This document shows positions 6,820 to 53,236 of a stretch of DNA of 64,000 bases, piece after piece (position 1 is the stretch's first letter; each line of letters starts with the position of its first letter). A model generated the notes under the pieces. That model did no database searches, was not told the DNA's origin, and saw only the letters and a list, made by a program, of their open reading frames with translations. The translations under genes were made by a program, and so were the position numbers. Source of the stretch: a virus (lineage: Duplodnaviria > Caudoviricetes); the IMG/VR virus record IMGVR_UViG_3300032239_001501, positions 101,510-165,509 of that record, one strand, 5' to 3'.

Positions 6820-8124
6820 TTATTTGGGTCTTGATATTCCCAAACTACCTAAGAAATCATCTAATCCGTCTTCATCTTCATCATCATTTTCGTCAGAATC
6901 AATATCTTTTTCTTCTTTATATTCCTCAAATTCATCTTTCATATTTTGAGCTTCTTTCATAATTTCTTCAAATTTTGAAGTTGCTTTTCTTACTTTAGAG
7001 TCATCTTCAGATATGGCGTTTCCTATAATTGCCAAAAATTCTTGAGCAGGTATTTGGTATAACAAGATATGGAACCAGTTTATTAGACCTTTGTTTGATT
7101 CGTCAAACATTCTGTCGGGTAATGCAAATCTAAGTTTTTCTACAATTTCAGGTCCTATTCTCAATTGCATTGGTTCGTTAGATAATACATCAACAGCACC
7201 TCTAACTTTTTCACGAATATCGGGATTTTTAGAATGTCCATGTCTTCCTTTCGCTTCTTCTAACCCTTTGATTATTTCATGACATAATATTGGGAAAATC
7301 ATTCCTGTTGCAGTAATTTTTGTGTCAGGACTTTCTTCTCCACCTTCACCACCTTCATCTTCATCATCTGAATCACCTAATTCTACTTTACCAGCAATAC
7401 CTTGTCCTGTTTCACTCATCATCTCAATCATTTGTTCCATAGTAAAATACAGGAAATCATTGATTGCCATAATTCCTAAATAATCTCTATATAATGAAGG
7501 GTCAATAGCGTCTAATCTTGCTTTTACTGATGGCTTTTGAAAAAGATAATGACCTTTTTTTGCAGCTCCTTGAATAATAGCATTTATGATATTTCTCTTA
7601 TGTTTTTCTAATTCTAATTCTTCTTCATCAGTTAAATCTTCAATATCAAATGATGGGATTTGAGGGTTTTCATTTTCCTCTTCATCATCTTCTTCATCTT
7701 CAGGTTCTTCAGGATTAAATCTAAAATTAGAAGTATCTGGCATACCCAATTTAGCATCAATCTGATACCAATCTTCAGGTACTTCACCTTCTTCTAAAGA
7801 TGCGTCAACTGCTAATTGTTCAAGTTCTTCTTTATGAGCACTTTCAATTCTCATGATATTAGGAAGTTTTCTCATCATTTCTTGATAAATCATTCCTTGA
7901 ACTTGTTTAGAATCAATATTTTGATTACCTGTAACTTCTTTAAGTTTGTCGGCAACTTTACCAAATCTTTGGCTTATTAATCTTTGAACATCTTGAGTCC
8001 CTTTTTTCATTGCAGGATTTTTTGCATATAAACTTTCAGGGTCTCCTAATTTTCTTTCCAAATTAGGATCCATTCTTTCACGCCTATTTCCGTAATCTAT
8101 TTGTTCTTTTAATTTCTTTGCCAT
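6820..8124 (-). CDS. Acidic hypothetical protein (probably virion/late)
   Basis: 434-aa D/E-rich ORF directly upstream of the terminase. Confidence 0.6.
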   Translation of the reverse strand: MAKKLKEQIDYGNRRERMDPNLERKLGDPESLYAKNPAMKKGTQDVQRLISQRFGKVADKLKEVTGNQNIDSKQVQGMIYQEMMRKLPNIMRIESAHKEELEQLAVDASLEEGEVPEDWYQIDAKLGMPDTSNFRFNPEEPEDEEDDEEENENPQIPSFDIEDLTDEEELELEKHKRNIINAIIQGAAKKGHYLFQKPSVKARLDAIDPSLYRDYLGIMAINDFLYFTMEQMIEMMSETGQGIAGKVELGDSDDEDEGGEGGEESPDTKITATGMIFPILCHEIIKGLEEAKGRHGHSKNPDIREKVRGAVDVLSNEPMQLRIGPEIVEKLRFALPDRMFDESNKGLINWFHILLYQIPAQEFLAIIGNAISEDDSKVRKATSKFEEIMKEAQNMKDEFEEYKEEKDIDSDENDDEDEDGLDDFLGSLGISRPK

Positions 8125-12888: not shown

Positions 12889-13284
12889 TTAGAGGATACT
12901 TATTCTTTTCTTTTCTTGTTTTTTGTAATTAGGTACGAATACCGTTAAAAGTCCATCCTCAATAGTTGCTTCAATGGAAGCTGGGTCATATCCTTCTCCA
13001 ACTGTAAATTGTTTTGAAATTGACTTGGATTTTTCTTCACCATTCAATTTATAAACTCTTTTTCCTTCAATGTGAATAACACCATTTTCCATTTCAACTT
13101 TTAAGTTTGATTTGTTAAAGCCAGCGACTTCTAAGAAAAGATAGGCACCATCATTTGTGTTGTTTATTTCATATTTTTCCTCACTGGTATTTTTGGGTGA
13201 TGAACTTGAATAATACCTGTAAGATGGAGTTGAGTTAAAAAAATTCTCCATAATGTTTCCGAAATCTGAATTTAAATAAACCAT
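12889..13284 (-). CDS. Small heat-shock protein (Hsp20)
   Basis: LEVAGF.K..LKVE..NG.IHIEG and IEATIEDGLLTV alpha-crystallin motifs. Confidence 0.9.
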   Translation of the reverse strand: MVYLNSDFGNIMENFFNSTPSYRYYSSSSPKNTSEEKYEINNTNDGAYLFLEVAGFNKSNLKVEMENGVIHIEGKRVYKLNGEEKSKSISKQFTVGEGYDPASIEATIEDGLLTVFVPNYKKQEKKRISIL

Positions 13285-13484: not shown

Positions 13485-15500
13485 ATGAACGATATTATGG
13501 ATGATGACGACAAAATAATGAGTAAAAAACAAAAACAAAATTCAGACAGTAATACACCTGTCTTGGATAATTTCAGTAGAGATTTAAATAAATTGGCGGA
13601 AGCCGGTAAGTTAGATCCTGTTATTGGACGTGATAGAGAGATTTTAAGAATCGCTCAAATCTTATCTCGCAGAAAGAAAAACAATCCTATTATTATAGGA
13701 GAACCTGGTTGTGGTAAAACCGCAATTGTTGAAGGTTTGGCAATGAAGATTGTAAGTGGTGAATGTCCCAAAAATCTTATTGATAAACGAGTCGTAAATC
13801 TTGATTTAACTTCAGTTGTTGCTGGCACAAAATATCGTGGTCAGTTTGAAGAAAGAATGAAAGTCATTATTGAAGAACTTCAAGCAAACCCAAACATCAT
13901 TATCTTTATTGATGAGATACATACACTTGTTGGGTCTGGTAATTCTGCAGGTTCAATGGATGGTTCCAATATTTTCAAACCCGCATTATCTCGTGGTGAA
14001 TTGCAATGTATCGGAGCAACAACTCTTGATGAATTCCGCAAAAATATTGAAAAGGATGGAGCATTAGAACGTAGATTCCAAAAAGTAATTGTTGAACCAT
14101 CTACAGTTGTGGAAACAATCCAAATTCTTAAAAATGTTCGTGAAAAATACGAAACATTCCATAAGGTAACTTATTCCGATGATGTTATTGAGGCTTGTGT
14201 TAAATTGGCTGATAGGTATATTACCGATCGTGAATTCCCTGATAAAGCGTTTGATATCTTAGATGAAGTTGGAGCTCGTATGCAAACCGACATAAAAATT
14301 CCTGAAGTAATAGAAGAATTAAAAAGGAAGGCATCAGAACTTAGACAATTGAAAATAGATGTTGTTAAAAAACAAAATTATGAACAAGCAGCAGAATTAC
14401 GAGATAAGGAAAAGAAATTGTTAACCAAACTTGAAATTGAAAAAACCAAGTTTGAAGAAAATCAATCAAAAGATAAAAAAATAATTTCACTTGAAAACGT
14501 ATATGATGTTGTATCTAATATGGTAAAAATTCCTGTGAATAAAATGAGTGTTGATGATAAAAAATCATTAATTAATTTGGATAAAGAATTAATAGGTAAA
14601 GTTATCGGTCAAAACGCCGCAGTTATCAAGATTGCAAAATCAATCAAAAGAAATAGACTGGGAATTAAAGACCCAAATCGTCCAATCGGTTCATTTGTAT
14701 TTTTGGGTTCAACGGGTGTCGGTAAAACACACTTGGCAAAACAATTGGCAAAAGAAATGTTTGGTTCCGAAGATTCATTAATCCGTGTGGATATGAGTGA
14801 ATATCAAGAAAAGCATACAATATCTAAATTGGTAGGGGCTCCTCCAGGATATGTTGGATATGAAGAAGGTGGACAATTAACTGAAAAGGTTAAAAACAAA
14901 CCATATTCAGTAATCCTATTTGATGAAGTGGAAAAAGCACATAAAGATGTTTTTACCATCTTACTTCAAATTTTAGATGATGGACACGTAACTGATAGTC
15001 TTGGTAGAAAGATTAATTTTAAAAATACATTAATTATTTTAACCTCAAACTTGGGAGTTAAAAAATTACAAGACTTTGGTACAGGGATTGGATTTTCAAG
15101 TAACGCATACTCAAATGAAGAGGCTAAAAAACAAGTATTGATGAAAGAGATGAAGAATTTCTTTTCACCTGAATTTTTGAACCGTATTGATGATACAATT
15201 GTATTCAATTCATTAAGTCCTGATGATATTAAGAAAATTACTGATATTGAACTTAAAAAATTAGTAGACCGTCTTAAAGAAATGAAATATACAATCACTT
15301 ATGATGATACCTTAATTGATTATCTTGCAAAAGTTGGGTTTGATGAATCTTATGGTGCAAGACCTCTTAAAAGAGCAATTCAAGATAAAATTGAAGACCT
15401 ATTATCTGAAGAAGTATTAACAGGTAAAATGATTGAAAATAAATCCTACCATATTAAAGTGGATGGTGAAGAAATCAAGATACAGAAAAAAGGTAGATAA
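13485..15500 (+). CDS. clpC: ClpC-type AAA+ unfoldase lacking the N-terminal Clp repeat domain
   Basis: Two AAA modules ([16 protein letters not shown]), UVR-like M domain (YEQAAELRD), GIGF ClpP-docking loop. Confidence 0.9.
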
Positions 15501-15649: not shown

Positions 15650-16492
15650 TTAAAAAACACTTCTACTTCTCCAATCATATTGTTTTGCTTCCTTATAATG
15701 TAATTTATATCCAAGATTTTCAATCATTTTACGTCCCATATTAATTCCATTAAACACATCCTCAACAACTACATACTCACTGGGAGTATGATAATTATAA
15801 TATCCTATTGAAAAATTAATACAAGAAAAATTAAACTTACCTCTTAACGCATAAACATCTGTATATGGATGAACCATGTATTGCATATCTTCATTAATCA
15901 TTCCTTCGGTTAATACTTTATCACACGCCTTAAAAAAATCAGAATCTCTATCAAATAATACCTGTCCAAAACATTTTTCAGTAATCATCCAATTTTCAGG
16001 AGCATCAAATTGAATCCCATATCCAACATTTGTGAAAAATTCTTCTTTTGCCTTCATGGAACCATGACAACCTGTTTCTTCAGATACAAAAAATGCAGCC
16101 TTTAAATAAGGTAATTCTTTTAATAGAGTTAAACATGCGAATACACCACATTTATCATCTCCACCAATACCTGTAGGATTATCTTTGTTATTATATGCTT
16201 TATAAGATAATTTAAGTTCTCCTTGAGTATTTGGTAACATCTCTTCGTGAACATTAATTGTATCAATGTTATGAACTGTATCTGTATGAGCTATCACACA
16301 AGGGAAATAGAAATCTTCCGATAATTCAGAACTTTCTTGTTTTGTGGCATAAACATTTTTATGTTCATCAACAAAATGTTCAATATTGTTTTCTGTTAAC
16401 CAATTAACCAAGAACTGAACCATTAGGTCTTCTTGATATGTTTTTGTGGGGACGCTTAAAACTTCTTTAAGCAATTGTAAATCTTGTGTCAT
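15650..16492 (-). CDS. M20/M28-family metallopeptidase
   Basis: AHTD, GGDDKCG, SEETG and YHT metal-binding motifs. Confidence 0.8.
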   Translation of the reverse strand: MTQDLQLLKEVLSVPTKTYQEDLMVQFLVNWLTENNIEHFVDEHKNVYATKQESSELSEDFYFPCVIAHTDTVHNIDTINVHEEMLPNTQGELKLSYKAYNNKDNPTGIGGDDKCGVFACLTLLKELPYLKAAFFVSEETGCHGSMKAKEEFFTNVGYGIQFDAPENWMITEKCFGQVLFDRDSDFFKACDKVLTEGMINEDMQYMVHPYTDVYALRGKFNFSCINFSIGYYNYHTPSEYVVVEDVFNGINMGRKMIENLGYKLHYKEAKQYDWRSRSVF

Positions 16493-17606: not shown

Positions 17607-17614
17607 TACCTTTG
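17607..17614 (+). promoter_or_regulatory. Bacteroidota-type -7 promoter box upstream of the tmRNA
   Basis: TACCTTTG fits TAnnTTTG; the same box occurs before clpP (~38257), at 43748 and 49122, and on the minus strand before tRNA genes. Confidence 0.6.
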
Positions 17615-17633: not shown

Positions 17634-18041
17634 GGGGGTGACAGGCTTTGATTTCAGGTATCAAGGATAAGTTGCAAGTAGTCGGATATCATCTACGACT
17701 TTAATTATTGGTGGTAAACATAACAGACGCAACTTTTGCGAAAATGGCTACTCTTGGTTTAACTAGAGAAGCTGTTGTTGTTGGTGCTTAATCTCACAGA
17801 ACAACTACGGGGTTTCCCATACGTACCTTGGAACAGAAATGGTCAAGGTGTAATACCACCCGAAGATGTATTAAGAGTCTCGTTCAGGAGTCTACTCTAA
17901 CACAAGTGAATCCGACACAGTTATTGGTTACGATGTCAAAATAGGAACCATTTATTTGTTTGTTATGAATAACAGAATAAACTTGTAGTAACGTATTGTT
18001 GAACCGGAAAGACCCGGTTTCAATTACCGGCACCTCCACCA
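17634..18041 (+). ncRNA. ssrA: tmRNA
   Basis: Acceptor stem GGGGGUG/CACCUCC with G3-U70, then A73 and CCA; T arm CCGGU-UUCAAUU-ACCGG; tag ORF at 17726-17791 after ATAACA. Confidence 0.93.
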
Positions 18042-18082
18042 CAATTCTCATCATATCCATGATGTAATAAAAAAGGTTCTAA

Positions 18083-18631
18083 TTAAGAACCTTTTTTATT
18101 TTTAACTATTAAGTCAATTAATTCATTAACCATATCATCTGACATAGTATTTTTCATCCAATTAATTGACCTTGAAACCCACCTAATATTTCCTTTAATA
18201 TATCCTTTAGAACTATCTATTCTATCTAAAGAAGCGGCATATATTGGGTTTTTATCTATTTTTTTATAAGATGATAGTATAAGATTTATTCCACTAAATT
18301 CACAAATACCATTTTGTTTTTCCCATTGTTCTTTCAAATCATCAATAGTAACATCAATAATATGAATATGATTTCTTTTTTTTATATTTCTAAAATGATA
18401 TCTAAATTTTGTATACTCATCATTATATCTATCATACCCTAAAGTAGTTAAATCAAATCGTTTATCTCCAAAATTTTTAACATTGTTTTTTCCGACGCAA
18501 GTTCTTGTACAAAAATTAGGTCTGTTTAATTTTTCATTTCTTCTTATTTCAGTTAATGGTTTTTCAAATTCTACGCCACAATTTTTACAAACACATTTGC
18601 CCATTTTATATTTTATTTTCTTTTTATCCAT
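18083..18631 (-). CDS. Zn-finger/HNH-like putative endonuclease
   Basis: CKNC...FCTRTC, then QNGICEFSG and SLDRIDSSKGYIKGNIRWV...N.MK. Confidence 0.7.
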   Translation of the reverse strand: MDKKKIKYKMGKCVCKNCGVEFEKPLTEIRRNEKLNRPNFCTRTCVGKNNVKNFGDKRFDLTTLGYDRYNDEYTKFRYHFRNIKKRNHIHIIDVTIDDLKEQWEKQNGICEFSGINLILSSYKKIDKNPIYAASLDRIDSSKGYIKGNIRWVSRSINWMKNTMSDDMVNELIDLIVKNKKGS

Positions 18632-19281: not shown

Positions 19282-22200
19282 ATGATTAAAAAATTAATTC
19301 TATTTTTATTTCTTCCGATTTTTTCGTTTTCACAAATTACGACATCGGAACTTAATGGAAGAGTAAAAGAAAAGACAGGGAATATTGTCCCTCACACATC
19401 AATTCAAATAATTTATGTTCCAACAGGAACCAAGTATTCATCTTCTGCAGATGATAAGGGAATTTATCATTTTTACAATGCTAGTGTTGGTGGTCCATAT
19501 ATTATTAAAGCAACTTCTGTAGGTTTTAAACCATTTCAAAAAGAAGATGTATTTTTAACTCTTGGGCAAAATAATGATTTAAACATTGTTTTGGAAGAGG
19601 AAAATAAACAACTTAAAGAAGTTATTGTTACTACAACAAAATCACTAAAAAATTCTTCAGGGATGTTTATTTCTGAAGATAGGGTTAAAAGTGTCCCTAT
19701 TCTTTCCAGATCAATTACAGATATTACTAAGTTAGTTCCACAATCAGTAAATAATTCATTTGCTGGAACAAACTTTAGATATAATAATGTTACAATTGAC
19801 GGAACAATTAATAATGATGTAATTGGATTTTCTCCGTCTCTAGGAGGACAGGGTAATACTTCAGGTATGCCAGGTTCATCAACAAGGACTTCACCAATTT
19901 CTATTGATGCAATAAAAGATATTCAAGTTTATATTGCACCTTTTGATGTTAAGGTTGGTAATTTCTTGGGTGGTTCAATCAATGCAATTACAAGAAGTGG
20001 TACAAATAAAGTAGAGGGATCAGTTTATACTTTTGGAAAAAATTCATCATTGGCTGGTTTTGATAACACAAAAGGTTTTCAAGATGGACAATATGGTTTT
20101 AGAGTAGGTTTACCTTTAATAAAAAATAAATTGTTTTTCTTTACAAACGAAGAAGTTACAGATAGAACGGAACCAGTTCAATATAATGCAAATGGACGTG
20201 GTTTAATATCAGATTCATTGGCAAATGTTATTTCTACATTTGTAAAAACTAAATATGGTTTTAATGTTGGTAATTATGATGATTATACAATTTATTCTCG
20301 TTCAAAAAAATATTTTAACAGATTAGATTGGAATATTAATAACCATAACCAATTAACTTTAAGAAATAATACAACAACTTCTGAAGCAACAAACTTAGAA
20401 AGAGATTTAACTAATTTTCGTTTCTCTTCTATGGATTTCAAACAAAATAACACTCAGTCATCAACTGTAATGGAATTACGTTCTCATTATGGAAAAAAAT
20501 CTAATTCATTAATTTTGGGTTATACTGATATCCATGATTATAGAACACCATTAAGTGGTAATTTTGCGTTCCCACAAACTGAAATTGCTTATAATGGTGG
20601 AACCATATTTTTAGGTAATGAAAGAGAAGCGACTGTTTTTAATTTAAAACAAAAAACAAAAGAATTAACGGATAATTTTAATTTTACATTGGGTAAACAT
20701 TCTTTATTAATTGGAACTCATAATGAATTCTATGATATTGATTATGGTTTTGTTAATAGTTGGAATGGTAGAGTATCATACAAATCAGTTGCAGATTTCT
20801 TATCATCAAATGTTAATAGAGTTAGAGGTTTCTATTCAACAATTAATAACGATAGAGATTACATATTCAACAATCCATATGCACAATTTAAAGTTAATTT
20901 ATTAAGTGGATATGTTCAGGATGAAATCAACTTTGGTAAATTAAAAATAACTCCGGGTATTAGATATGATTACGCACAATTACCAAATAAACCATCTTTA
21001 TCTTCACAAGCAGCTGCAGGATACACCAATGATTACTTAAATAATGGTGTTATTTCACCAAGATTAGGATTCAATTATGATGTGAATGGAGATAAGAGTT
21101 TAATTGTAAGAGGTGGTAGTGGTGTATTTGTAGGTAGAATTCCTTTCGCTTGGATAGGATACGCTTTCTATAATGATGGTATAGGATTTGGGTCTTTTGA
21201 CGTAAATAATGTTGCAGGTAAAAATGTTGGTGATGTATTAACAACACCAGCAAAACAATTTGCATTTAATAACGGACAATCCAATTTAGTTCAAACAGAT
21301 TTAATTGCAAACGGCTTTAAAATGCCGAAAGTATGGAGAAGTAATTTGGCAATTGATAAAACAATCTCAGGATATAAATTAACATTAGAAGGTTTATATA
21401 CACAAGTTATAACTGATTTGATGTTCCAACAAATTAACTTTAAAACTGATGAAGCAAATTATGGTTTTTTTAGTTACGATACAAAACATCAAATGCCGAT
21501 TTATAACGGTGTAAAAATAAATTCTAAATTATCAAATGCTTACGCATTATCTAATACCGATAAAGGTTATAGATATCAAGGCACAATATCTCTTACTAAG
21601 AAATATAAATTTGGTTTAGATGTATACGGAGCATACACTTATGGTATATCTAAAGATATTACAAATGGTATAAGAAACTCAATGGAAAGTAATTGGCAGT
21701 TAAATCAATCTTTAACACCAAATAATCCCCAATTGGCATATTCTAACTTTGATATCAGACATAGAATAATATCACAAATTACTAAAAAGATTAAATCAAC
21801 ATCAGTTTCATTCGTATTAAATTCTCAAAGTGGGATTCCTTTCACTTGGGGATTAGTGAACTCAACTATTGCAGGAACTCCTCAATCAGCTGGTTTAGCT
21901 TATATCTTCAAAGATTTGACGGAAGCAACAAAATACATTCCAACAGCAGGACAAGCACAATCTTTTATGGATTATGTAAATAGCAATTCTTATTTGTCTT
22001 CAAGAAAAGGAAACTTTACTGAAAGAAATGGTGGTAGAACTCCTTGGAGTACAACTATTGATACAAGATTAACTCAAAATGTTGGAAAACATTTACAATT
22101 AACAGCGGATATTTTTAATTTAACAAACCTAATTAATAATGAATGGGGTAATATCTATTTTGTTTCAAATACATTTAATTCAACTTCATCAGTTGGTTTA

Positions 22201-22344
22201 TCTAAAACATCAGGGTCATTTTCATCGGCAGGTGTTTTAACAGATGCTAAATTTTCATATAGTAAACCTACACAATTACCTTATTCAATTGATGGAATTA
22301 ACTCTAAATGGCAAATTCAATTAGGACTTAGATATAATTTTTAA
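19282..22344 (+). CDS. TonB-dependent receptor (Oar-like, with N-terminal carboxypeptidase-regulatory-like domain)
   Basis: Signal peptide, plug motif GGSINAITRSGTN, ISPRLGFNY, C-terminal beta-signal LGLRYNF. Confidence 0.9.
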   Translation: MIKKLILFLFLPIFSFSQITTSELNGRVKEKTGNIVPHTSIQIIYVPTGTKYSSSADDKGIYHFYNASVGGPYIIKATSVGFKPFQKEDVFLTLGQNNDLNIVLEEENKQLKEVIVTTTKSLKNSSGMFISEDRVKSVPILSRSITDITKLVPQSVNNSFAGTNFRYNNVTIDGTINNDVIGFSPSLGGQGNTSGMPGSSTRTSPISIDAIKDIQVYIAPFDVKVGNFLGGSINAITRSGTNKVEGSVYTFGKNSSLAGFDNTKGFQDGQYGFRVGLPLIKNKLFFFTNEEVTDRTEPVQYNANGRGLISDSLANVISTFVKTKYGFNVGNYDDYTIYSRSKKYFNRLDWNINNHNQLTLRNNTTTSEATNLERDLTNFRFSSMDFKQNNTQSSTVMELRSHYGKKSNSLILGYTDIHDYRTPLSGNFAFPQTEIAYNGGTIFLGNEREATVFNLKQKTKELTDNFNFTLGKHSLLIGTHNEFYDIDYGFVNSWNGRVSYKSVADFLSSNVNRVRGFYSTINNDRDYIFNNPYAQFKVNLLSGYVQDEINFGKLKITPGIRYDYAQLPNKPSLSSQAAAGYTNDYLNNGVISPRLGFNYDVNGDKSLIVRGGSGVFVGRIPFAWIGYAFYNDGIGFGSFDVNNVAGKNVGDVLTTPAKQFAFNNGQSNLVQTDLIANGFKMPKVWRSNLAIDKTISGYKLTLEGLYTQVITDLMFQQINFKTDEANYGFFSYDTKHQMPIYNGVKINSKLSNAYALSNTDKGYRYQGTISLTKKYKFGLDVYGAYTYGISKDITNGIRNSMESNWQLNQSLTPNNPQLAYSNFDIRHRIISQITKKIKSTSVSFVLNSQSGIPFTWGLVNSTIAGTPQSAGLAYIFKDLTEATKYIPTAGQAQSFMDYVNSNSYLSSRKGNFTERNGGRTPWSTTIDTRLTQNVGKHLQLTADIFNLTNLINNEWGNIYFVSNTFNSTSSVGLSKTSGSFSSAGVLTDAKFSYSKPTQLPYSIDGINSKWQIQLGLRYNF

Positions 22345-24576: not shown

Positions 24577-25170
24577 ATGGCAAAATGTGATAGACATATT
24601 TGGGATACACAAGATAAAGAATGGTGTTGGAAATGTGATGAACTTACTGATAAAGAACGTATGCAAAATACAAAAAAAATTAAAGTAATATTTTTAGATA
24701 TAGACGGTGTATTGGCGACTAATAAAGAGTATTCAACAAACAGAACCAAATTTAGAGAAAAATATTCTTGGGCTAAAGAGTTGAGAGTTCCTTATGGGTG
24801 GAATAAAGGTTGTGTTGAAGTCTTTAATGAGATATTAGACGCAACAAATGCTGATATTGTAATTAGTTCAGATTGGAGATTTCATTGGGATTTAGATGAG
24901 TTAGATAAAATATTTAAAGCAAATGGAGTTAAAAAATCACCAATATTTGGTACTATTAAGAATAAAAGAAAAATGAGTTCTGATTTAGAGGATGATAGAG
25001 TTTACCAAATTAGTGAATGGGTTAAGTTTAATAAACCTGAAAAATGGGTGGCAATTGATGATATGAATTTGAATAGTTTGGGTCCTAATTTTTTTAGAAC
25101 AAAAGATTCTGAAGGTTTAAAACAAACAGGATTAAAAAATAAAATCATAAACACATTAAATGATGTCTAA
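24577..25170 (+). CDS. HAD-family phosphatase (Swiss-Army-knife RNA-repair type)
   Basis: FLDIDGVL, ISSDWR and WVAIDD motifs. Confidence 0.8.
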   Translation: MAKCDRHIWDTQDKEWCWKCDELTDKERMQNTKKIKVIFLDIDGVLATNKEYSTNRTKFREKYSWAKELRVPYGWNKGCVEVFNEILDATNADIVISSDWRFHWDLDELDKIFKANGVKKSPIFGTIKNKRKMSSDLEDDRVYQISEWVKFNKPEKWVAIDDMNLNSLGPNFFRTKDSEGLKQTGLKNKIINTLNDV

Positions 25171-49133: not shown

Positions 49134-49793
49134 ATGATAAAGATAGACCAAGATAACCTCACAAACGTGTGGATAACTTCCGACACACATTTTTCCCACA
49201 AGAACATATGTAGGGGAGTTACTGCTTGGAGAACCCAAGAAGGTGAAATACCTATGTCTCAAACTCGTGACTTTTCAACCATAGAAAAAATGAACGCAGC
49301 AATTGTTAACAACATTAACGAAAGTGTTGGACAAGATGATATATTAATTCACCTTGGCGATTGGTCTTTTGGCGGATATGAACAAATACGTGAATTTTGG
49401 GATAGACTTATATGTAAAAATATATATTTAATACTTGGAAATCATGATCATCATATTGAAAACAATAGAGATGGGTCTCAAGGGTTATTTAAATCTGTGT
49501 CTCATTACAATACACTTGAAATAGGTCAATTTAAGTTTCGTTTGATGCATTACCCAATAAGTTCTTGGGATGGTCTTAATAAAGGTGTAATGCACTTACA
49601 CGGTCACTGTCATCTTCCAACTCATATGAGGTTTGGTAGAGGTCAAAGAATGGATGTAGGTATGGATGGTCACCCTGAATTTAGACCATACAATGTATAC
49701 AGAGAAGTTGTACCTTTGTTAAGACATAGAGAAAAACTATCTGAAATGCCAAATGACCATCACGTAGAAAGATTAATAAATTCGGATAAATAA
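49134..49793 (+). CDS. Calcineurin-like metallophosphoesterase
   Basis: SDTH, LGD, GNHD, HYP and HGHCH motifs. Confidence 0.9.
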   Translation: MIKIDQDNLTNVWITSDTHFSHKNICRGVTAWRTQEGEIPMSQTRDFSTIEKMNAAIVNNINESVGQDDILIHLGDWSFGGYEQIREFWDRLICKNIYLILGNHDHHIENNRDGSQGLFKSVSHYNTLEIGQFKFRLMHYPISSWDGLNKGVMHLHGHCHLPTHMRFGRGQRMDVGMDGHPEFRPYNVYREVVPLLRHREKLSEMPNDHHVERLINSDK

Positions 49794-50203
49794 TGAAAAA
49801 TTTGTATATTATTAGGGGATTACCAGGAGCTGGTAAATCTACAGTTGCCAAATCTTTAGGAAAATCTTGGCAAATATTTGAGGCTGACCAATTCTTTATG
49901 AAAAATGGTAAGTATGAATTTGATGAATCAAAATTAAAAGATGCTCATAATTGGTGTAAAAGAAAAGTTCATAATGCAATGCATCCAGGTTTGGTAAATT
50001 CATTATTTTTCACTAATATTGTAATATCTAACACATTTACTCAGGAATGGGAGATGAAATTTTATCAAATAATTGCAAAAAAATACGGATACAGAGTTCA
50101 CACAATTATTGTAGAAAATAGACGTGGTGGAGTTAATACTCATGGAGTTCCTGAAGAAAAAGTAGAACAAATGAAAGAAAGATTTCAAATAAAATTAAAA
50201 TAA
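49793..50203 (+). CDS. P-loop kinase (AAA_33 / polynucleotide-kinase-like)
   Basis: RGLPGAGKST, EAD, SNTF and HGVP motifs. Confidence 0.8.
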   Translation: MKNLYIIRGLPGAGKSTVAKSLGKSWQIFEADQFFMKNGKYEFDESKLKDAHNWCKRKVHNAMHPGLVNSLFFTNIVISNTFTQEWEMKFYQIIAKKYGYRVHTIIVENRRGGVNTHGVPEEKVEQMKERFQIKLK

Positions 50204-50211
50204 AAACAAAC

Positions 50212-50418
50212 ATGCAAACATTAGTATTCAACACAACAACAAAATCAGTTAAAGTAACTGAAGGCGATAATTTAACAATATTATTTCAATATGAAAATGT
50301 TCCAACAGTAAAAGTATTGGACGCATTTTATGAAGTAATGCAAAAAGATGAATTTGGTAAATCAACTCCTGTATTACGTCTCCCAATTGCAAACACAAAT
50401 ATGGTTATTAAACAATAA
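50212..50418 (+). CDS. Hypothetical protein
   Basis: 68-aa ORF between kinase and ligase. Confidence 0.55.
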   Translation: MQTLVFNTTTKSVKVTEGDNLTILFQYENVPTVKVLDAFYEVMQKDEFGKSTPVLRLPIANTNMVIKQ

Positions 50419-51500
50419 TGAAATTTGATATAAACATATTAAATGATTATTTGGTAAAGGGTTTGGTGGTTAAAAATAACCATCCGACCCTTCCCATTTC
50501 TATTTGGAATTATAGCAGAATATGCCAATATGAAAATAAATGGGATGAAATTACCAAACAATGTCGTGGTCTTATTTTAGACCAAGAAGGGAATGTTATT
50601 GCCAAAGGGTTTGATAAGTTTTTTAATATTGAAGAACACAAGCCAGAAGAAATACCAAATGAACCTTTTGAAGTATTTGAAAAATTGGATGGTTCATTAG
50701 GTATTTTATTTTGGTATGAAGGAAAATGGATATTATCAAGCAAAGGATCTTTTACTTCTGAACAAGCAATTAAAGGAAAAGAGATTTTAGATTCAAAATA
50801 CAATGTTCATCCAATACCAAAAGGATATACCACATTAGTTGAAATTATATACCCTCAAAATAGAATCGTATGCAATTACGGAGATGATGTATCATTAGTT
50901 GTGTTATCAATGATTAGTAATGCATCAGGGAAAGAATTAGATTACAATTCTTTAAAGTTAATTGGAGAAGAAACCAAGATGCCTCTTGTTAAAGTATATG
51001 ACGGAATTAGTGATTATAAGACCCTTAAATCAATGATTAATAAAGACCGTGAGGGTTATGTAGTTAAGTTCATAAATGGATTCAGAATTAAGATAAAAGG
51101 TGAAGAATATGTTCGTCTACATAAAATCTTAACAGAGTTTTCAAATGTGGACATATGGGAATATTTGAAAGATGGAAGGGATGTCAATGAATTGTTAGAT
51201 AGAGTTCCTGATGAATTTGATATGTGGGTTAAATCAACTATTAGTGATATAAAATATGGTTATTTCCAAGTTAGCGAAACATCCGGCAAATTATTTGACC
51301 ACAAAATGTATGGAAAATACAATGATTTAGAACCTGAAACTGATAAGAAAAAATATGCAGAATGGGTTATGAATCAAGATGAAATACTAAGACCAATTCT
51401 ATTCAGAATGTTTGATAAAAAAGATTATTCTGACTATATTTGGAAGATAATTAAACCACAATATGTTCGACCATTTTGGAAAAAGGAGATTGAACCATGA
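50418..51500 (+). CDS. RNA ligase (T4 Rnl1-like)
   Basis: CRGLI, FDKFFN, EKLDGSLG, EGYVV and KIKGEEY motifs. Confidence 0.88.
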   Translation: MKFDINILNDYLVKGLVVKNNHPTLPISIWNYSRICQYENKWDEITKQCRGLILDQEGNVIAKGFDKFFNIEEHKPEEIPNEPFEVFEKLDGSLGILFWYEGKWILSSKGSFTSEQAIKGKEILDSKYNVHPIPKGYTTLVEIIYPQNRIVCNYGDDVSLVVLSMISNASGKELDYNSLKLIGEETKMPLVKVYDGISDYKTLKSMINKDREGYVVKFINGFRIKIKGEEYVRLHKILTEFSNVDIWEYLKDGRDVNELLDRVPDEFDMWVKSTISDIKYGYFQVSETSGKLFDHKMYGKYNDLEPETDKKKYAEWVMNQDEILRPILFRMFDKKDYSDYIWKIIKPQYVRPFWKKEIEP

Positions 51501-52090: not shown

Positions 52091-53236
52091 ATGAAAGACA
52101 ATTATTTAGACGAATGGTATCAAGCACTACTATCATTATTGGTAAGTGAAGACCAAAGTTTTAACAAATCAGATAGAACAGGAACAGGAACCAAATCATT
52201 GTTTGGTATTCAATTCAGACATAATATGTCTGATGGATTTCCATTACTTACAACTAAGAAAATGGCGTGGAAGTCAATATGCACGGAATTACTATGGTTT
52301 TTAAGAGGTGATACTAACATCAAATTCCTGTTGGATTATGATTGTCATATTTGGGATGGTGATGCTTATAAGAATTATTGTAACTCGTATCCTGATGCTG
52401 AAAAAACATTTCAATATGAAGGAAGCACTATTGATGTAAGAAAAATGACACAAGAAGAATTCATCAACCAAATAAAAACAGATGATGAGTTCGCTAAGAA
52501 GTGGGGTGAATTGGGACCAATCTACGGTAAACAATGGAGAAAATGGCAAGGTTGGATGGAATATGGAGATGATAAGAAAATGGGATCTTTATGGTATGAC
52601 CAAATTCTAAGACTTATTCATCAATTAAAAACTGATCCCGATTCAAGAAGATTAATGGTCAGTGCTTGGAATGTGAGTGAATTAGACCAAATGATATTAC
52701 CACCTTGTCATTATGGATTTCAAGTTTATACAAGAGAATTAAATAATGAAGAGAAATGGAAACAATATTTGAAATTAGGGTTGAATATTGAGATAAATGG
52801 AATCCCGTTGGAACTTAAACATATGGGAACTCCATTTTATCCAAAATCATTACCGAAACGAGCAATCTCGCTAATGTGGAATCAACGTTCGGTAGATGTT
52901 CCATTGGGTCTTCCATTCAATATTGCCTCATATGGATTATTGTTAGAAATTATTGCAAAAGAAGTTAATATGGTTCCTAACCAACTTATAGGTAATTTGG
53001 GTGATTGTCATATCTACTTAAATCAAATTGATGGTGTAAAAGAACAAATTAGTAGAACATCATTTGAATTACCATCAATAAAAATTACCGAAAGAAATTG
53101 GTATCAACATGAAAAAGTAAAGGAATATTTAGGTGAAAAAACATTTAGGGAAAAAATACTATCATATAGACCAGATTGTTTTGAATTGATTGGCTATCAA
53201 TCTCATGGTAAAATAAAAATACCACTTTCTAACTAA
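52091..53236 (+). CDS. thyA: Thymidylate synthase
   Basis: DRTGTGT, ELLWFLRG, LPPCH, QRSVDVPLGLPFN and GDCHIY motifs. Confidence 0.95.
   Translation: MKDNYLDEWYQALLSLLVSEDQSFNKSDRTGTGTKSLFGIQFRHNMSDGFPLLTTKKMAWKSICTELLWFLRGDTNIKFLLDYDCHIWDGDAYKNYCNSYPDAEKTFQYEGSTIDVRKMTQEEFINQIKTDDEFAKKWGELGPIYGKQWRKWQGWMEYGDDKKMGSLWYDQILRLIHQLKTDPDSRRLMVSAWNVSELDQMILPPCHYGFQVYTRELNNEEKWKQYLKLGLNIEINGIPLELKHMGTPFYPKSLPKRAISLMWNQRSVDVPLGLPFNIASYGLLLEIIAKEVNMVPNQLIGNLGDCHIYLNQIDGVKEQISRTSFELPSIKITERNWYQHEKVKEYLGEKTFREKILSYRPDCFELIGYQSHGKIKIPLSN

What the first reader, a model, noticed from the sequence alone, without database searches (positions are those of the whole stretch)
17634..18041. tmRNA with a long non-canonical degradation tag, alongside phage-encoded ClpC and ClpP
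Seen: the likely tag (17726-17791) is (A)DATFAKMATLGLTREAVVVGA*, 21 codons ending in VVVGA. Established: typical ssrA tags are about 10 residues ending in (Y)ALAA and are read by ClpXP/ClpAP. The window also has ClpC with an IGF loop, catalytically intact ClpP and Hsp20. Inference: an orthogonal phage ribosome-rescue and degradation circuit, or a tag that evades host ClpXP. The resume codon is inferred from the ATAACA context; no smpB is seen in this window.
Basis: partly seen in the sequence, partly recalled or inferred. Interest (0 to 1): 0.72.

Follow-up and report, generated by a model that had tools for sequence, protein, structure and literature searches.

The report
Giant-phage tmRNA with long conserved tag
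A roughly 300-kb freshwater phage, probably of Bacteroidota, carries its own ribosome-rescue RNA (tmRNA) that writes a tag twice the usual length, kept in every related phage examined and always a few kb from a ClpC unfoldase lacking its regulatory head; whether that unfoldase reads the tag is plausible but untested.

Summary
Rfam finds a full-length tmRNA at exactly 17634-18041 (+) (77.1 bits, E 3e-28); ARAGORN misses it. The tag frame 17726-17791 is correct: (A)DATFAKMATLGLTREAVVVGA.

In related IMG/VR jumbo-phage contigs the same frame is open, 21-23 codons long, follows the invariant A at -4, and shows a coding pattern of substitution along its whole length. The RNA helices show many compensatory changes.

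The tmRNA lies 2-5.6 kb downstream of an N-domain-less ClpC-like ATPase in 64 of 64 testable loci. In 19 of 19 loci found through the tmRNA with at least 4.2 kb upstream, ClpC is present. The ATPase keeps its ClpP-docking G-I/V/L-G-F loop everywhere.

Phage ClpP (intact triad here) is absent from one subclade, and SmpB occurs in only 2 of 3 complete relatives. The tag's end does not track ClpP presence, so a fully orthogonal circuit is not supported. Nearest relatives end in ...VVVAA; the window's ...VGA is a one-base variant, so evasion of host ClpXP is not indicated.

Sampled Bacteroidota tags are 8-10 residues. Phage tmRNAs are already known. This scan has noted the same block in related phage genomes.

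The parts
17634..18041 (+). one-piece tmRNA (ssrA) gene
   Evidence: Rfam RF00023, 77.1 bits, E 3.3e-28, model positions 1-374. Homologous tmRNAs occur in 64 related loci. RNAalifold gives 43 pairs, 32 of them with compensatory changes.
17634..17640 (+). 5' strand of the acceptor stem (GGGGGUG), carrying G3 of the G3:U70 alanine identity pair
   Evidence: Pairs with 18031-18037. Positions 5-7 co-vary across relatives while G3:U stays invariant.
17686..17722 (+). pseudoknot 1: stems AGUCG/CGACU and UAUCAUC/GGUGGUA
   Evidence: Read from the sequence. The second stem is in the Rfam alignment. It ends 9 nt before the resume codon, against 12 nt in E. coli (PMC2481249).
17726..17791 (+). tag reading frame: resume codon GAC, 21 codons, stop TAA at 17789-17791
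   Evidence: The frame is conserved at 21-23 codons in 61 parsed relatives, 47 distinct tags. Codon-position entropy is 0.78/0.61/1.19, and the other frames are closed in 30 of 32. A lies at -4.
18014..18030 (+). T-arm of the tRNA-like domain (CCGGU / UUCAAUU / ACCGG)
   Evidence: All five stem pairs show compensatory changes among the 25 aligned sequences.
18031..18041 (+). 3' strand of the acceptor stem, discriminator A and encoded CCA
17607..17614 (+). TAccTTTG motif 19 nt upstream of the mature 5' end; candidate Bacteroidota-type -7 promoter element
   Evidence: The motif is seen in the sequence, and TAnnTTTG or TTTG lies at a similar distance in relatives. The promoter consensus is recalled from memory, so this is an inference and was not tested.
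18066..18100 (+). intrinsic terminator hairpin followed by a U-run
   Evidence: Fold of 18042-18105: -19.8 kcal/mol, z -7.1.
13485..15500 (+). ClpC-like double-ring AAA+ unfoldase without the N-domain
   Evidence: Pfam domains. Aligns to S. aureus ClpC residues 147-803, E 5e-226, with the M-domain tip aromatic (Tyr for F436) and the R443/D444 equivalents kept and the loop ...TGIGFSS.... The PHROG profile match starts at position 157.
12889..13284 (-). Hsp20 small heat-shock protein, divergent from clpC
   Evidence: Pfam PF00011, E 2.5e-14.
15650..16492 (-). peptidase (M20/M42-like) between clpC and the tmRNA
   Evidence: phrog_4191 'peptidase', E 3e-35. The Pfam M20 match is weak, 24.0 bits, just under the cut-off.
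38280..38960 (+). ClpP proteolytic subunit with an intact Ser-His-Asp triad
   Evidence: Pfam CLP_protease, 186 bits. The alignment to 1y7o shows the Ser, His and Asp.

Best explanation
This is a working one-piece tmRNA gene of an uncultured T4-like jumbo phage of about 300 kb, probably a 'moraphage'-type phage of Bacteroidota.

Shown:
- It is a stand-alone unit with its own terminator.
- It has the tRNA-like domain with the alanine identity pair G3:U70.
- The long H2 helix and the T-arm are kept by compensatory changes.
- A 21-codon tag frame starts 4 nt after the conserved A, and its peptide is under purifying selection along its whole length.

Inferred:
- In the infected cell the RNA is charged by host AlaRS and delivered by SmpB. 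SmpB is phage-encoded in some relatives and otherwise the host's.
- It enters ribosomes stalled on broken mRNAs and appends Ala plus the 21-residue tag, freeing the ribosome.
- The tag ends in small non-polar residues, like a degron. It also has a conserved basic-flanked hydrophobic core, K-[M/L]-x-x-[L/I/V]-G-L, which implies a binding partner beyond a C-terminal reader.
- The best candidate partner is the ClpC-like unfoldase that always lies 2-5.6 kb upstream. It lacks the adaptor-binding N-domain, keeps the regulatory M-domain tip and keeps the ClpP-docking loop. It would feed tagged chains to phage ClpP where present, as here, or to host ClpP.

My odds: functional tmRNA writing this tag, about 0.9. 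Tag acts as a degradation signal, about 0.65. Phage ClpC is its main reader, about 0.35.
For: - tmRNA call: Rfam 77.1 bits.
- tRNA-like domain: acceptor covariation with invariant G3:U.
- RNA structure: 32 of 43 consensus pairs have compensatory changes.
- Tag frame: conserved in 61 relatives with 47 distinct sequences.
- Coding signal: third-position variability is highest, also in the N-terminal half (0.76/0.36/1.15). Leu12 and Arg14 are kept through changes of codon family, and the other frames are closed.
- Frame rule: A at -4 and U/C at -5 fit the E. coli A86 rule.
- Independent support: where ARAGORN detects a relative, it calls the same 21-22-codon tag in 8 of 13 hits.
- Synteny: 64 of 64 from the ClpC side and 19 of 19 from the tmRNA side.
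- ClpP docking: the G-[I/V/L]-G-F loop is kept in 79 of the 80 ClpC homologues; the remaining match (L058) is cut off before the loop.
- ClpP: catalytic triad intact.
- SmpB: full-length, with a C-terminal tail, in relative G002.
- Precedent: in S. aureus ClpC, removing the N-domain raises GFP-SsrA degradation by M-domain mutants (PMC5699869).
- Host contrast: sampled Bacteroidota tags are 8-10 residues.
Against: - There is no experimental or transcript evidence for this locus.
- SmpB was not found in the available 55% of this genome and is absent from complete relative G001.
- Phage ClpP is absent from a subclade, and the tag C-terminus does not co-vary with it.
- Synteny may only reflect the conserved gene order of one phage lineage. 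In the distant huge phage LR756508.1 the tmRNA and ClpC lie about 360 kb apart.
- The M-domain tip is retained, so the ATPase may still need an unknown activator.
- No SspB, ClpS or MecA homologue was found.
Confidence: 0.8

Rival explanations
1. The tmRNA only boosts ribosome rescue, and its products are cleared by host proteases (ClpXP, Lon, Tsp-like). On this reading the phage ClpC, Hsp20 and ClpP form a general protein-quality or host-takeover chaperone set, and they sit near the tmRNA only because gene order is conserved in this lineage.
For: - Tags end in small non-polar residues with a terminal Ala in 57 of 61, and nearest relatives end in ...VVVAA, the class read by ClpX and ClpA.
- Phage ClpP and SmpB are dispensable in some relatives.
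- There is no tag/ClpP covariation.
- In LR756508.1 the tmRNA and ClpC are far apart.
- The Clp ATPase is a core gene of the probable lineage, discussed without any reference to tmRNA (PMC12619734).
Against: - It does not explain why 21 residues, including an internal core, are kept under peptide-level selection when the host phylum manages with 8-10.
- Two-way synteny held in every testable locus.
Confidence: 0.4
2. The tag is not mainly a degron. Its conserved basic-flanked hydrophobic core would be a chaperone-binding or sequestration signal, for example for Hsp70-type or Hsp20 chaperones, or would serve another peptide function, with ribosome release as the selected activity.
For: - The whole length is under peptide-level selection, with K6, G11 and L12 nearly invariant.
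- An Hsp20 gene lies beside clpC.
- DnaK and DnaJ genes are reported in the probable lineage (PMC12619734).
- The resemblance of the core to Hsp70-binding motifs is recalled from memory only.
Against: - The conserved non-polar, Ala-terminated end is typical of degradation tags.
Confidence: 0.12
3. Translation resumes at an internal codon of the same frame and gives a short tag of canonical length, as ARAGORN proposes for four hits (three phages; L009 and L090 are one genome) (an 8-residue tag).
For: ARAGORN calls an 8-residue internal tag in L008, L009, L029 and L090.
Against: - Coding periodicity is as strong in codons 1-11 as in the rest.
- The invariant A at -4 and U/C at -5 precede the upstream GGC/GAC.
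- The upstream codon lies 9-11 nt after pseudoknot 1, as in E. coli.
- ARAGORN itself gives the long tag in 8 other relatives.
Confidence: 0.04
4. The element is a passenger: a recently captured host ssrA, or an attachment-site remnant without function for the phage.
For: Many temperate phages carry ssrA fragments from integration sites (discussed in PMC9004378).
Against: - The gene is full length and is kept in all testable relatives across 69-97% ClpC identity, with compensatory changes.
- The tag is unrelated to the sampled Bacteroidota tags.
- The nearest cultured relatives by portal protein have no tmRNA.
Confidence: 0.02

Closest known systems
Bacterial one-piece tmRNA (SsrA, Rfam RF00023), as in Bacteroidota
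   Same: Overall architecture is the same: alanine-type tRNA-like domain, long H2 helix, pseudoknot 1, a resume codon 4 nt after a conserved A, a stop codon, and a 3' T-arm with CCA.
   Different: - The tag has 21 codons, against 8-10 in 32 of 32 sampled genomes of the host phylum, and the sequence is unrelated.
- The Rfam score is much lower: 77 bits here and 50-90 in the phage family, against 105-198 in the bacteria.
- The gene sits in a lytic-type jumbo phage.
Known phage-encoded tmRNAs: mycobacteriophage Bxz1 group, Bacillus phage G, huge phages, and the two-piece tmRNA of OM43 phage Melnitz
   Same: These are complete ssrA genes in large phages (PMC4131195; PMC7162821; PMC9004378). Phage G also pairs a tmRNA with Clp genes, ClpXP in that case (PMC12484599).
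   Different: - This is a different lineage with a different tag.
- Here the tag is shown to be conserved at the peptide level across dozens of distinct relatives.
- Here it is strictly syntenic with an N-domain-less ClpC.
- No tmRNA is mentioned in the paper on the probable lineage (PMC12619734).
ClpC-ClpP of S. aureus and B. subtilis with MecA, and the engineered delta-N ClpC
   Same: Two AAA+ rings, a short coiled-coil M-domain with the tip aromatic and the R/D residues kept, and a ClpP-docking loop. Engineered removal of the N-domain raises SsrA-reporter degradation once M-domain repression is lifted (PMC5699869).
   Different: - The N-domain is naturally missing.
- No MecA, ClpS or SspB homologue is found in the phage genomes searched.
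- The substrate is unknown.
SspB-ssrA (E. coli, Caulobacter) and the long Mycoplasma tag read by Lon
   Same: These are precedents for tag residues upstream of the C-terminus being conserved because a second factor binds them. Natural tags range from 8 to 35 residues (PMC8012679).
   Different: - No SspB homologue was found.
- The Lon/Mycoplasma comparison is recalled from memory and was not tested here.

Membership tests
tmRNA (SsrA, RF00023) | Covariance-model score above the curated threshold over the full model | tested here: met
   77.1 bits against 47, model positions 1-374.
tmRNA (SsrA, RF00023) | tRNA-like domain: 7-bp acceptor stem with G3:U70, discriminator A, CCA, and a T-arm | tested here: met
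   Read from the sequence. G3:U is invariant while positions 5-7 co-vary. All five T-stem pairs show compensatory changes.
tmRNA (SsrA, RF00023) | Tag reading frame with the resume codon 4 nt after a conserved A, ended by a stop codon | tested here: met
   17726-17791, with A at -4 and U at -5. The frame is conserved with coding periodicity. The rule comes from PMC2481249.
tmRNA (SsrA, RF00023) | Pseudoknots PK1-PK4 | tested here: inconclusive
   PK1 can be drawn in the window and in both sequence groups of relatives by eye. RNAalifold recovers only parts of PK2 and PK4. The Rfam alignment is poor in the middle, accuracy 0.57.
tmRNA (SsrA, RF00023) | SmpB partner available | tested here: inconclusive
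   None in the 165.5-kb contig, which is 55% complete. SmpB is present in complete relatives G002 and G003 and absent in G001. Host SmpB is presumably available.
tmRNA (SsrA, RF00023) | Alanylation and tagging activity | not testable with these tools
   Needs biochemistry or mass spectrometry.
ClpC (class I Hsp100 with ClpP docking) | Two AAA+ modules plus a short coiled-coil M-domain | tested here: met
   AAA, AAA_lid_9, UVR, AAA_2 and ClpB_D2-small domains. E 5e-226 to S. aureus ClpC.
ClpC (class I Hsp100 with ClpP docking) | ClpP-binding loop (I/V/L-G-F) | tested here: met
   IGF at residues 535-537. The loop is kept in 79 of the 80 homologues; the remaining match is cut off before it.
ClpC (class I Hsp100 with ClpP docking) | N-terminal Clp_N repeat domain (adaptor and phospho-arginine binding) | tested here: not met
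   The protein aligns from ClpC residue 147 and from PHROG profile position 157. There is no Clp_N hit. It is therefore filed as ClpC-like, N-domain-less.
ClpP (peptidase S14) | CLP_protease fold with the Ser-His-Asp triad | tested here: met
   186 bits over profile positions 5-181 of 182. The triad aligns with 1y7o. A separate T4-type prohead protease at 995-1714 argues against a capsid-maturation role.
ClpX-type ssrA degron (C-terminal L/V-A-A) | The last three residues are non-polar and end in Ala-Ala | tested here: inconclusive
   The window ends in V-G-A and the nearest relatives in V-A-A. Across the family the commonest ends are TVA, VAA, VVA, AVA and VTA. Recognition cannot be computed.

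The most novel reading that the evidence does not exclude
The tag may be a phage-private degron. On this reading its conserved internal core, K-[M/L]-x-x-[L/I/V]-G-L, docks on the N-domain-less phage ClpC. That docking may also relieve the ClpC's M-domain repression, so the tag would act as both substrate signal and activator. Products of rescued ribosomes would then be channelled to a phage-controlled unfoldase working with phage or host ClpP, separately from the host's short-tag ClpXP route.
Probability: 0.3. Interest if true: 0.8.

Novelty: new member of a known kind. Interest (0 to 1): 0.5.

Why it matters
Phage tmRNAs are rare. Buchholz et al. found them in 2.3% of sequenced phages (PMC9004378), and their role is unknown.

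Here a whole, widespread lineage of uncultured freshwater jumbo phages keeps one. Its double-length tag is under peptide-level selection, and it is always beside a ClpP-docking unfoldase that has lost its adaptor domain. This gives a concrete test of whether phages run their own 'tag and destroy' route: reporter-tag fusions against phage ClpC-ClpP and against host ClpXP.

The case also shows that ARAGORN-based annotation misses most of these genes. It detected a tmRNA in 13 of the 99 phage loci scanned, of which at least 64 hold one.

Tried and rejected
- **Nucleotide search.** blastn of the tmRNA against INPHARED phages found no match.
- **ARAGORN.** It missed the tmRNA on the window.
- **Resume codon.** Rfam's own placement one codon downstream was rejected in favour of the column shared with relatives.
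- **Promoter and terminator scan.** The sigma-70 scan found nothing convincing upstream, and it missed the terminator, which folding then showed.
- **Adaptors and other rescue factors.** SspB, ClpS, MecA, peptidyl-tRNA hydrolase and RF-1/ArfB domains were not found in G000-G003 and G005.
- **Tag/ClpP covariation.** None was found.
- **Nearest cultured relatives by portal protein.** Microcystis phage Mel-JY01 and Flavobacterium phage immuto have no tmRNA.
- **Column-wise covariation for pseudoknot 1.** This was abandoned because MAFFT does not align the two sequence groups consistently with the structure.
- **Resemblance to cyanobacterial tags.** A resemblance between the tag pattern and cyanobacterial tags, recalled from memory, could not be tested. 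The literature search for it failed and no cyanobacterial genome handle was available.
- **14-mer scan of IMG/VR.** It gave many chance hits, and only 48 of 80 loci held the tmRNA.

Full report
**What the window is.** The window is the last 64 kb of a 165.5-kb IMG/VR virus contig that CheckV rates 55% complete. Complete relatives are 309-321 kb.

It encodes a T4-type portal, large terminase and prohead protease. It also holds seven tRNA genes, an RNA-repair set and a TonB-dependent-receptor-like gene. The best matches of that receptor gene are contigs in Arcicella and Flavobacterium MAGs, at 57% and 54% identity.

The nearest cultured phages by portal protein are only about 38% identical: Microcystis phage Mel-JY01 and Flavobacterium phage immuto.

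Genome size, freshwater origin, T4-like core, a core Clp ATPase, Hsp20 and predicted Flavobacteriia hosts all fit the recently named 'moraphages' (PMC12619734). I did not compare sequences with that set, so this assignment is an inference. That paper does not mention tmRNA.

**The observation.**
- Rfam places a complete tmRNA at exactly 17634-18041 (+), 77.1 bits, E 3.3e-28. ARAGORN reports nothing there.
- The sequence shows a 7-bp acceptor stem with G3:U70, discriminator A and CCA.
- A pseudoknot 1 can be drawn from AGUCG/CGACU and UAUCAUC/GGUGGUA.
- The T-arm is at 18014-18030.
- A strong hairpin with a U-run follows at 18066-18100 (z -7.1).
- A TAccTTTG motif lies 19 nt upstream of the mature 5' end. 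It resembles the Bacteroidota -7 promoter element as I recall it. This is an inference.

**Relatives and the reading frame.** More than 596 IMG/VR stretches encode relatives of the neighbouring Clp ATPase, and 80 were fetched.

A profile built from 25 aligned tmRNAs finds a tmRNA on the same strand, 2.0-5.6 kb downstream of the ATPase gene, in 64 of the 80. All 16 misses have at most 3.3 kb of contig left beyond the ATPase gene.

The alignment shows that the window's GAC at 17726 occupies the column of GGC in nearly all relatives. It is preceded by an invariant A at -4 and U/C at -5. This is the E. coli U85/A86 rule for frame setting (PMC2481249). Rfam's alignment would start one codon later in the same frame.

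The window's tag is (A)DATFAKMATLGLTREAVVVGA.

Evidence that the whole frame is translated:
- In 61 parsed relatives there are 47 distinct tags of 21 codons (49), 22 codons (10) or 23 codons (2). Gly starts 55 and Asp starts 6. Ala ends 57.
- Entropy by codon position is 0.78/0.61/1.19 overall and 0.76/0.36/1.15 in codons 1-11.
- Leu12 is invariant although its first and third codon positions vary, that is, it is kept across both leucine codon families, and Arg14 likewise switches between AGA and CGU.
- The two other frames contain stops in 30 of 32.
- An internal short tag, which ARAGORN proposes for four hits (three phages), is therefore unlikely. ARAGORN itself gives the long tag in 8 other relatives.

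**RNA structure.** RNAalifold on 25 sequences gives 43 pairs, 32 of them with compensatory changes. These cover the long H2 helix and all five T-stem pairs. The acceptor stem co-varies at positions 5-7 while G3:U stays fixed. This is a selected, functional-looking RNA. It is not a captured fragment.

**Comparison with the likely hosts.** In 32 sampled genomes of the phylum of the Flavobacterium MAG, every tmRNA has an 8-10-residue tag. All but one end in [L/M]-A-A, for example GEGNYALAA in that MAG. The phage tag is about twice as long and unrelated in sequence. It still lies within the known natural range of 8-35 residues (PMC8012679).

**The Clp genes.** The 671-aa ATPase aligns with S. aureus ClpC from residue 147 to 803 (E 5e-226), so the N-domain is missing.
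- The M-domain tip is kept: Tyr in place of F436, with the R443 and D444 equivalents present.
- The ClpP-docking loop reads ...TGIGFSS....
- 79 of the 80 homologues keep G-[I/V/L]-G-F; the remaining match (L058) ends before the loop.
- In S. aureus the M-domain tip holds ClpC in a resting state. Removing the N-domain raises SsrA-reporter degradation once that repression is lifted (PMC5699869).

A natural N-less ClpC is thus well suited to engage a C-terminal tag directly, but it may still need an activator. No SspB, ClpS or MecA homologue was found.

ClpP at 38280-38960 has the Ser-His-Asp triad and is about as similar to bacterial ClpPs as they are to each other. The phage has a separate T4-type prohead protease, so a capsid role for this ClpP is unlikely.

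**Is it an orthogonal circuit?** The ClpC-tmRNA link is strict in both directions. From the ClpC side it holds in 64 of 64 loci. In loci fetched through a tmRNA 14-mer, all 19 with at least 4.2 kb upstream have ClpC.

The other parts vary:

| Part | Present | Absent |
|---|---|---|
| ClpP | G000, G001, G002, G004, G005 and 11 further fragments (12 of the 25, which include G005) | Complete G003, and fragments with more than 29 kb downstream of the tmRNA (L048, L069, L074, L078, L080) |
| SmpB | Complete relatives G002 and G003; full length with a C-terminal tail in G002 | Complete relative G001; not found in this half-genome |

- The ClpP-lacking genomes form the subclade with about 70% ClpC identity to the window.
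- The C-terminal pentapeptide EVTVA occurs in both ClpP-positive and ClpP-negative phages.
- In the distant huge phage LR756508.1, a tmRNA with a putative 36-codon tag lies about 360 kb from its ClpC homologue.

The evidence therefore supports a conserved tmRNA plus N-less-ClpC pair that can use host SmpB and host ClpP. It does not support a sealed phage-only system. It does not indicate evasion of ClpXP either. The tags end like ordinary degrons, and the window's ...VGA differs by one base from the ...VAA of its nearest relatives.

**What is known already.** Phage tmRNAs have been catalogued since the Bxz1 group and phage G (PMC4131195). Huge phages carry tmRNA and SmpB (PMC7162821). Phage G has a tmRNA and ClpXP (PMC12484599). 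A survey found tmRNAs in 2.3% of phage genomes and proposed roles in maintaining translation or recycling host proteins (PMC9004378).

I found no paper that describes this lineage's tag or its linkage to ClpC. Earlier notes of this scan describe the same block in related phage genomes with the same open question.

**Verdict.** This is a new member of a known kind, phage-encoded tmRNA. Its tag is well conserved and lineage-specific, and the hypothesis about its reader can be tested.

Noticed in passing
L024:12871-13087 (relative IMGVR_UViG_3300019093_000008); probably also L039: The tmRNA gene of this relative is interrupted in its T-loop by a group I intron (Rfam RF00028, 72.5 bits, E 3.7e-18). 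The exon halves read ...GACGCGGGTT / CGATTCCCGCC.... L039 shows the same break point.
   Followed up: partly
window 18083-18631 (-): An HNH/endonuclease VII-like gene lies directly downstream of the tmRNA terminator (phrog_3322, E 3.7e-22). It may be a homing endonuclease, in keeping with the intron seen in relatives.
   Followed up: no
window 19282-22344 (+): A 1020-aa TonB-dependent-receptor-like outer-membrane protein (CarboxypepD_reg plus OMP beta-barrel). Its best matches are in Arcicella and Flavobacterium MAG contigs, at 57% and 54%. It is a host clue, but those MAG contigs could themselves be phage.
   Followed up: partly
window 49134-51500 (+) and 24577-25170 (+): An RNA-repair set: Metallophos phosphoesterase, a P-loop kinase-like protein (AAA_33), T4-type RNA ligase 1, and a HAD domain of 'Swiss Army Knife' RNA-repair proteins. 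This fits a theme of keeping translation running under RNA damage.
   Followed up: no
window 31562-31662 (-): Rfam calls a 101-nt tRNA (43.3 bits) that ARAGORN does not report. It may carry an insert.
   Followed up: no
window 52091-53236 (+): The thymidylate synthase is 381 aa, but the Pfam match spans residues 12-379 for a 266-position profile. That implies about 100 extra residues inside the domain.
   Followed up: no
L145 (LR756508.1:92434-92880): A 484-kb huge phage has a tmRNA (72 bits) whose frame after ...UAACU GGC stays open for 36 codons and ends ...PAAV. ARAGORN proposes a different short tag.
   Followed up: partly
L083 (IMGVR_UViG_3300047195_000238), minus strand around 6945-7400: This contig shares the exact 31-nt T-arm/acceptor 3' end of the window's tmRNA but has an otherwise different tmRNA body. 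Its tag is of canonical length, 10 codons ending ...MAA.
   Followed up: partly
L002, L003, L016 tmRNA 3' ends: Some relatives have a variant T-loop (GGCAGAG or GGCGGWA instead of UUCGAAU-type) with matching changes elsewhere in the tRNA-like domain.
   Followed up: no
window 34370-37614 (+): Two tandem carbamoyltransferase genes (Carbam_trans_N plus Carbam_trans_C), followed by ClpP about 700 bp further on.
   Followed up: no
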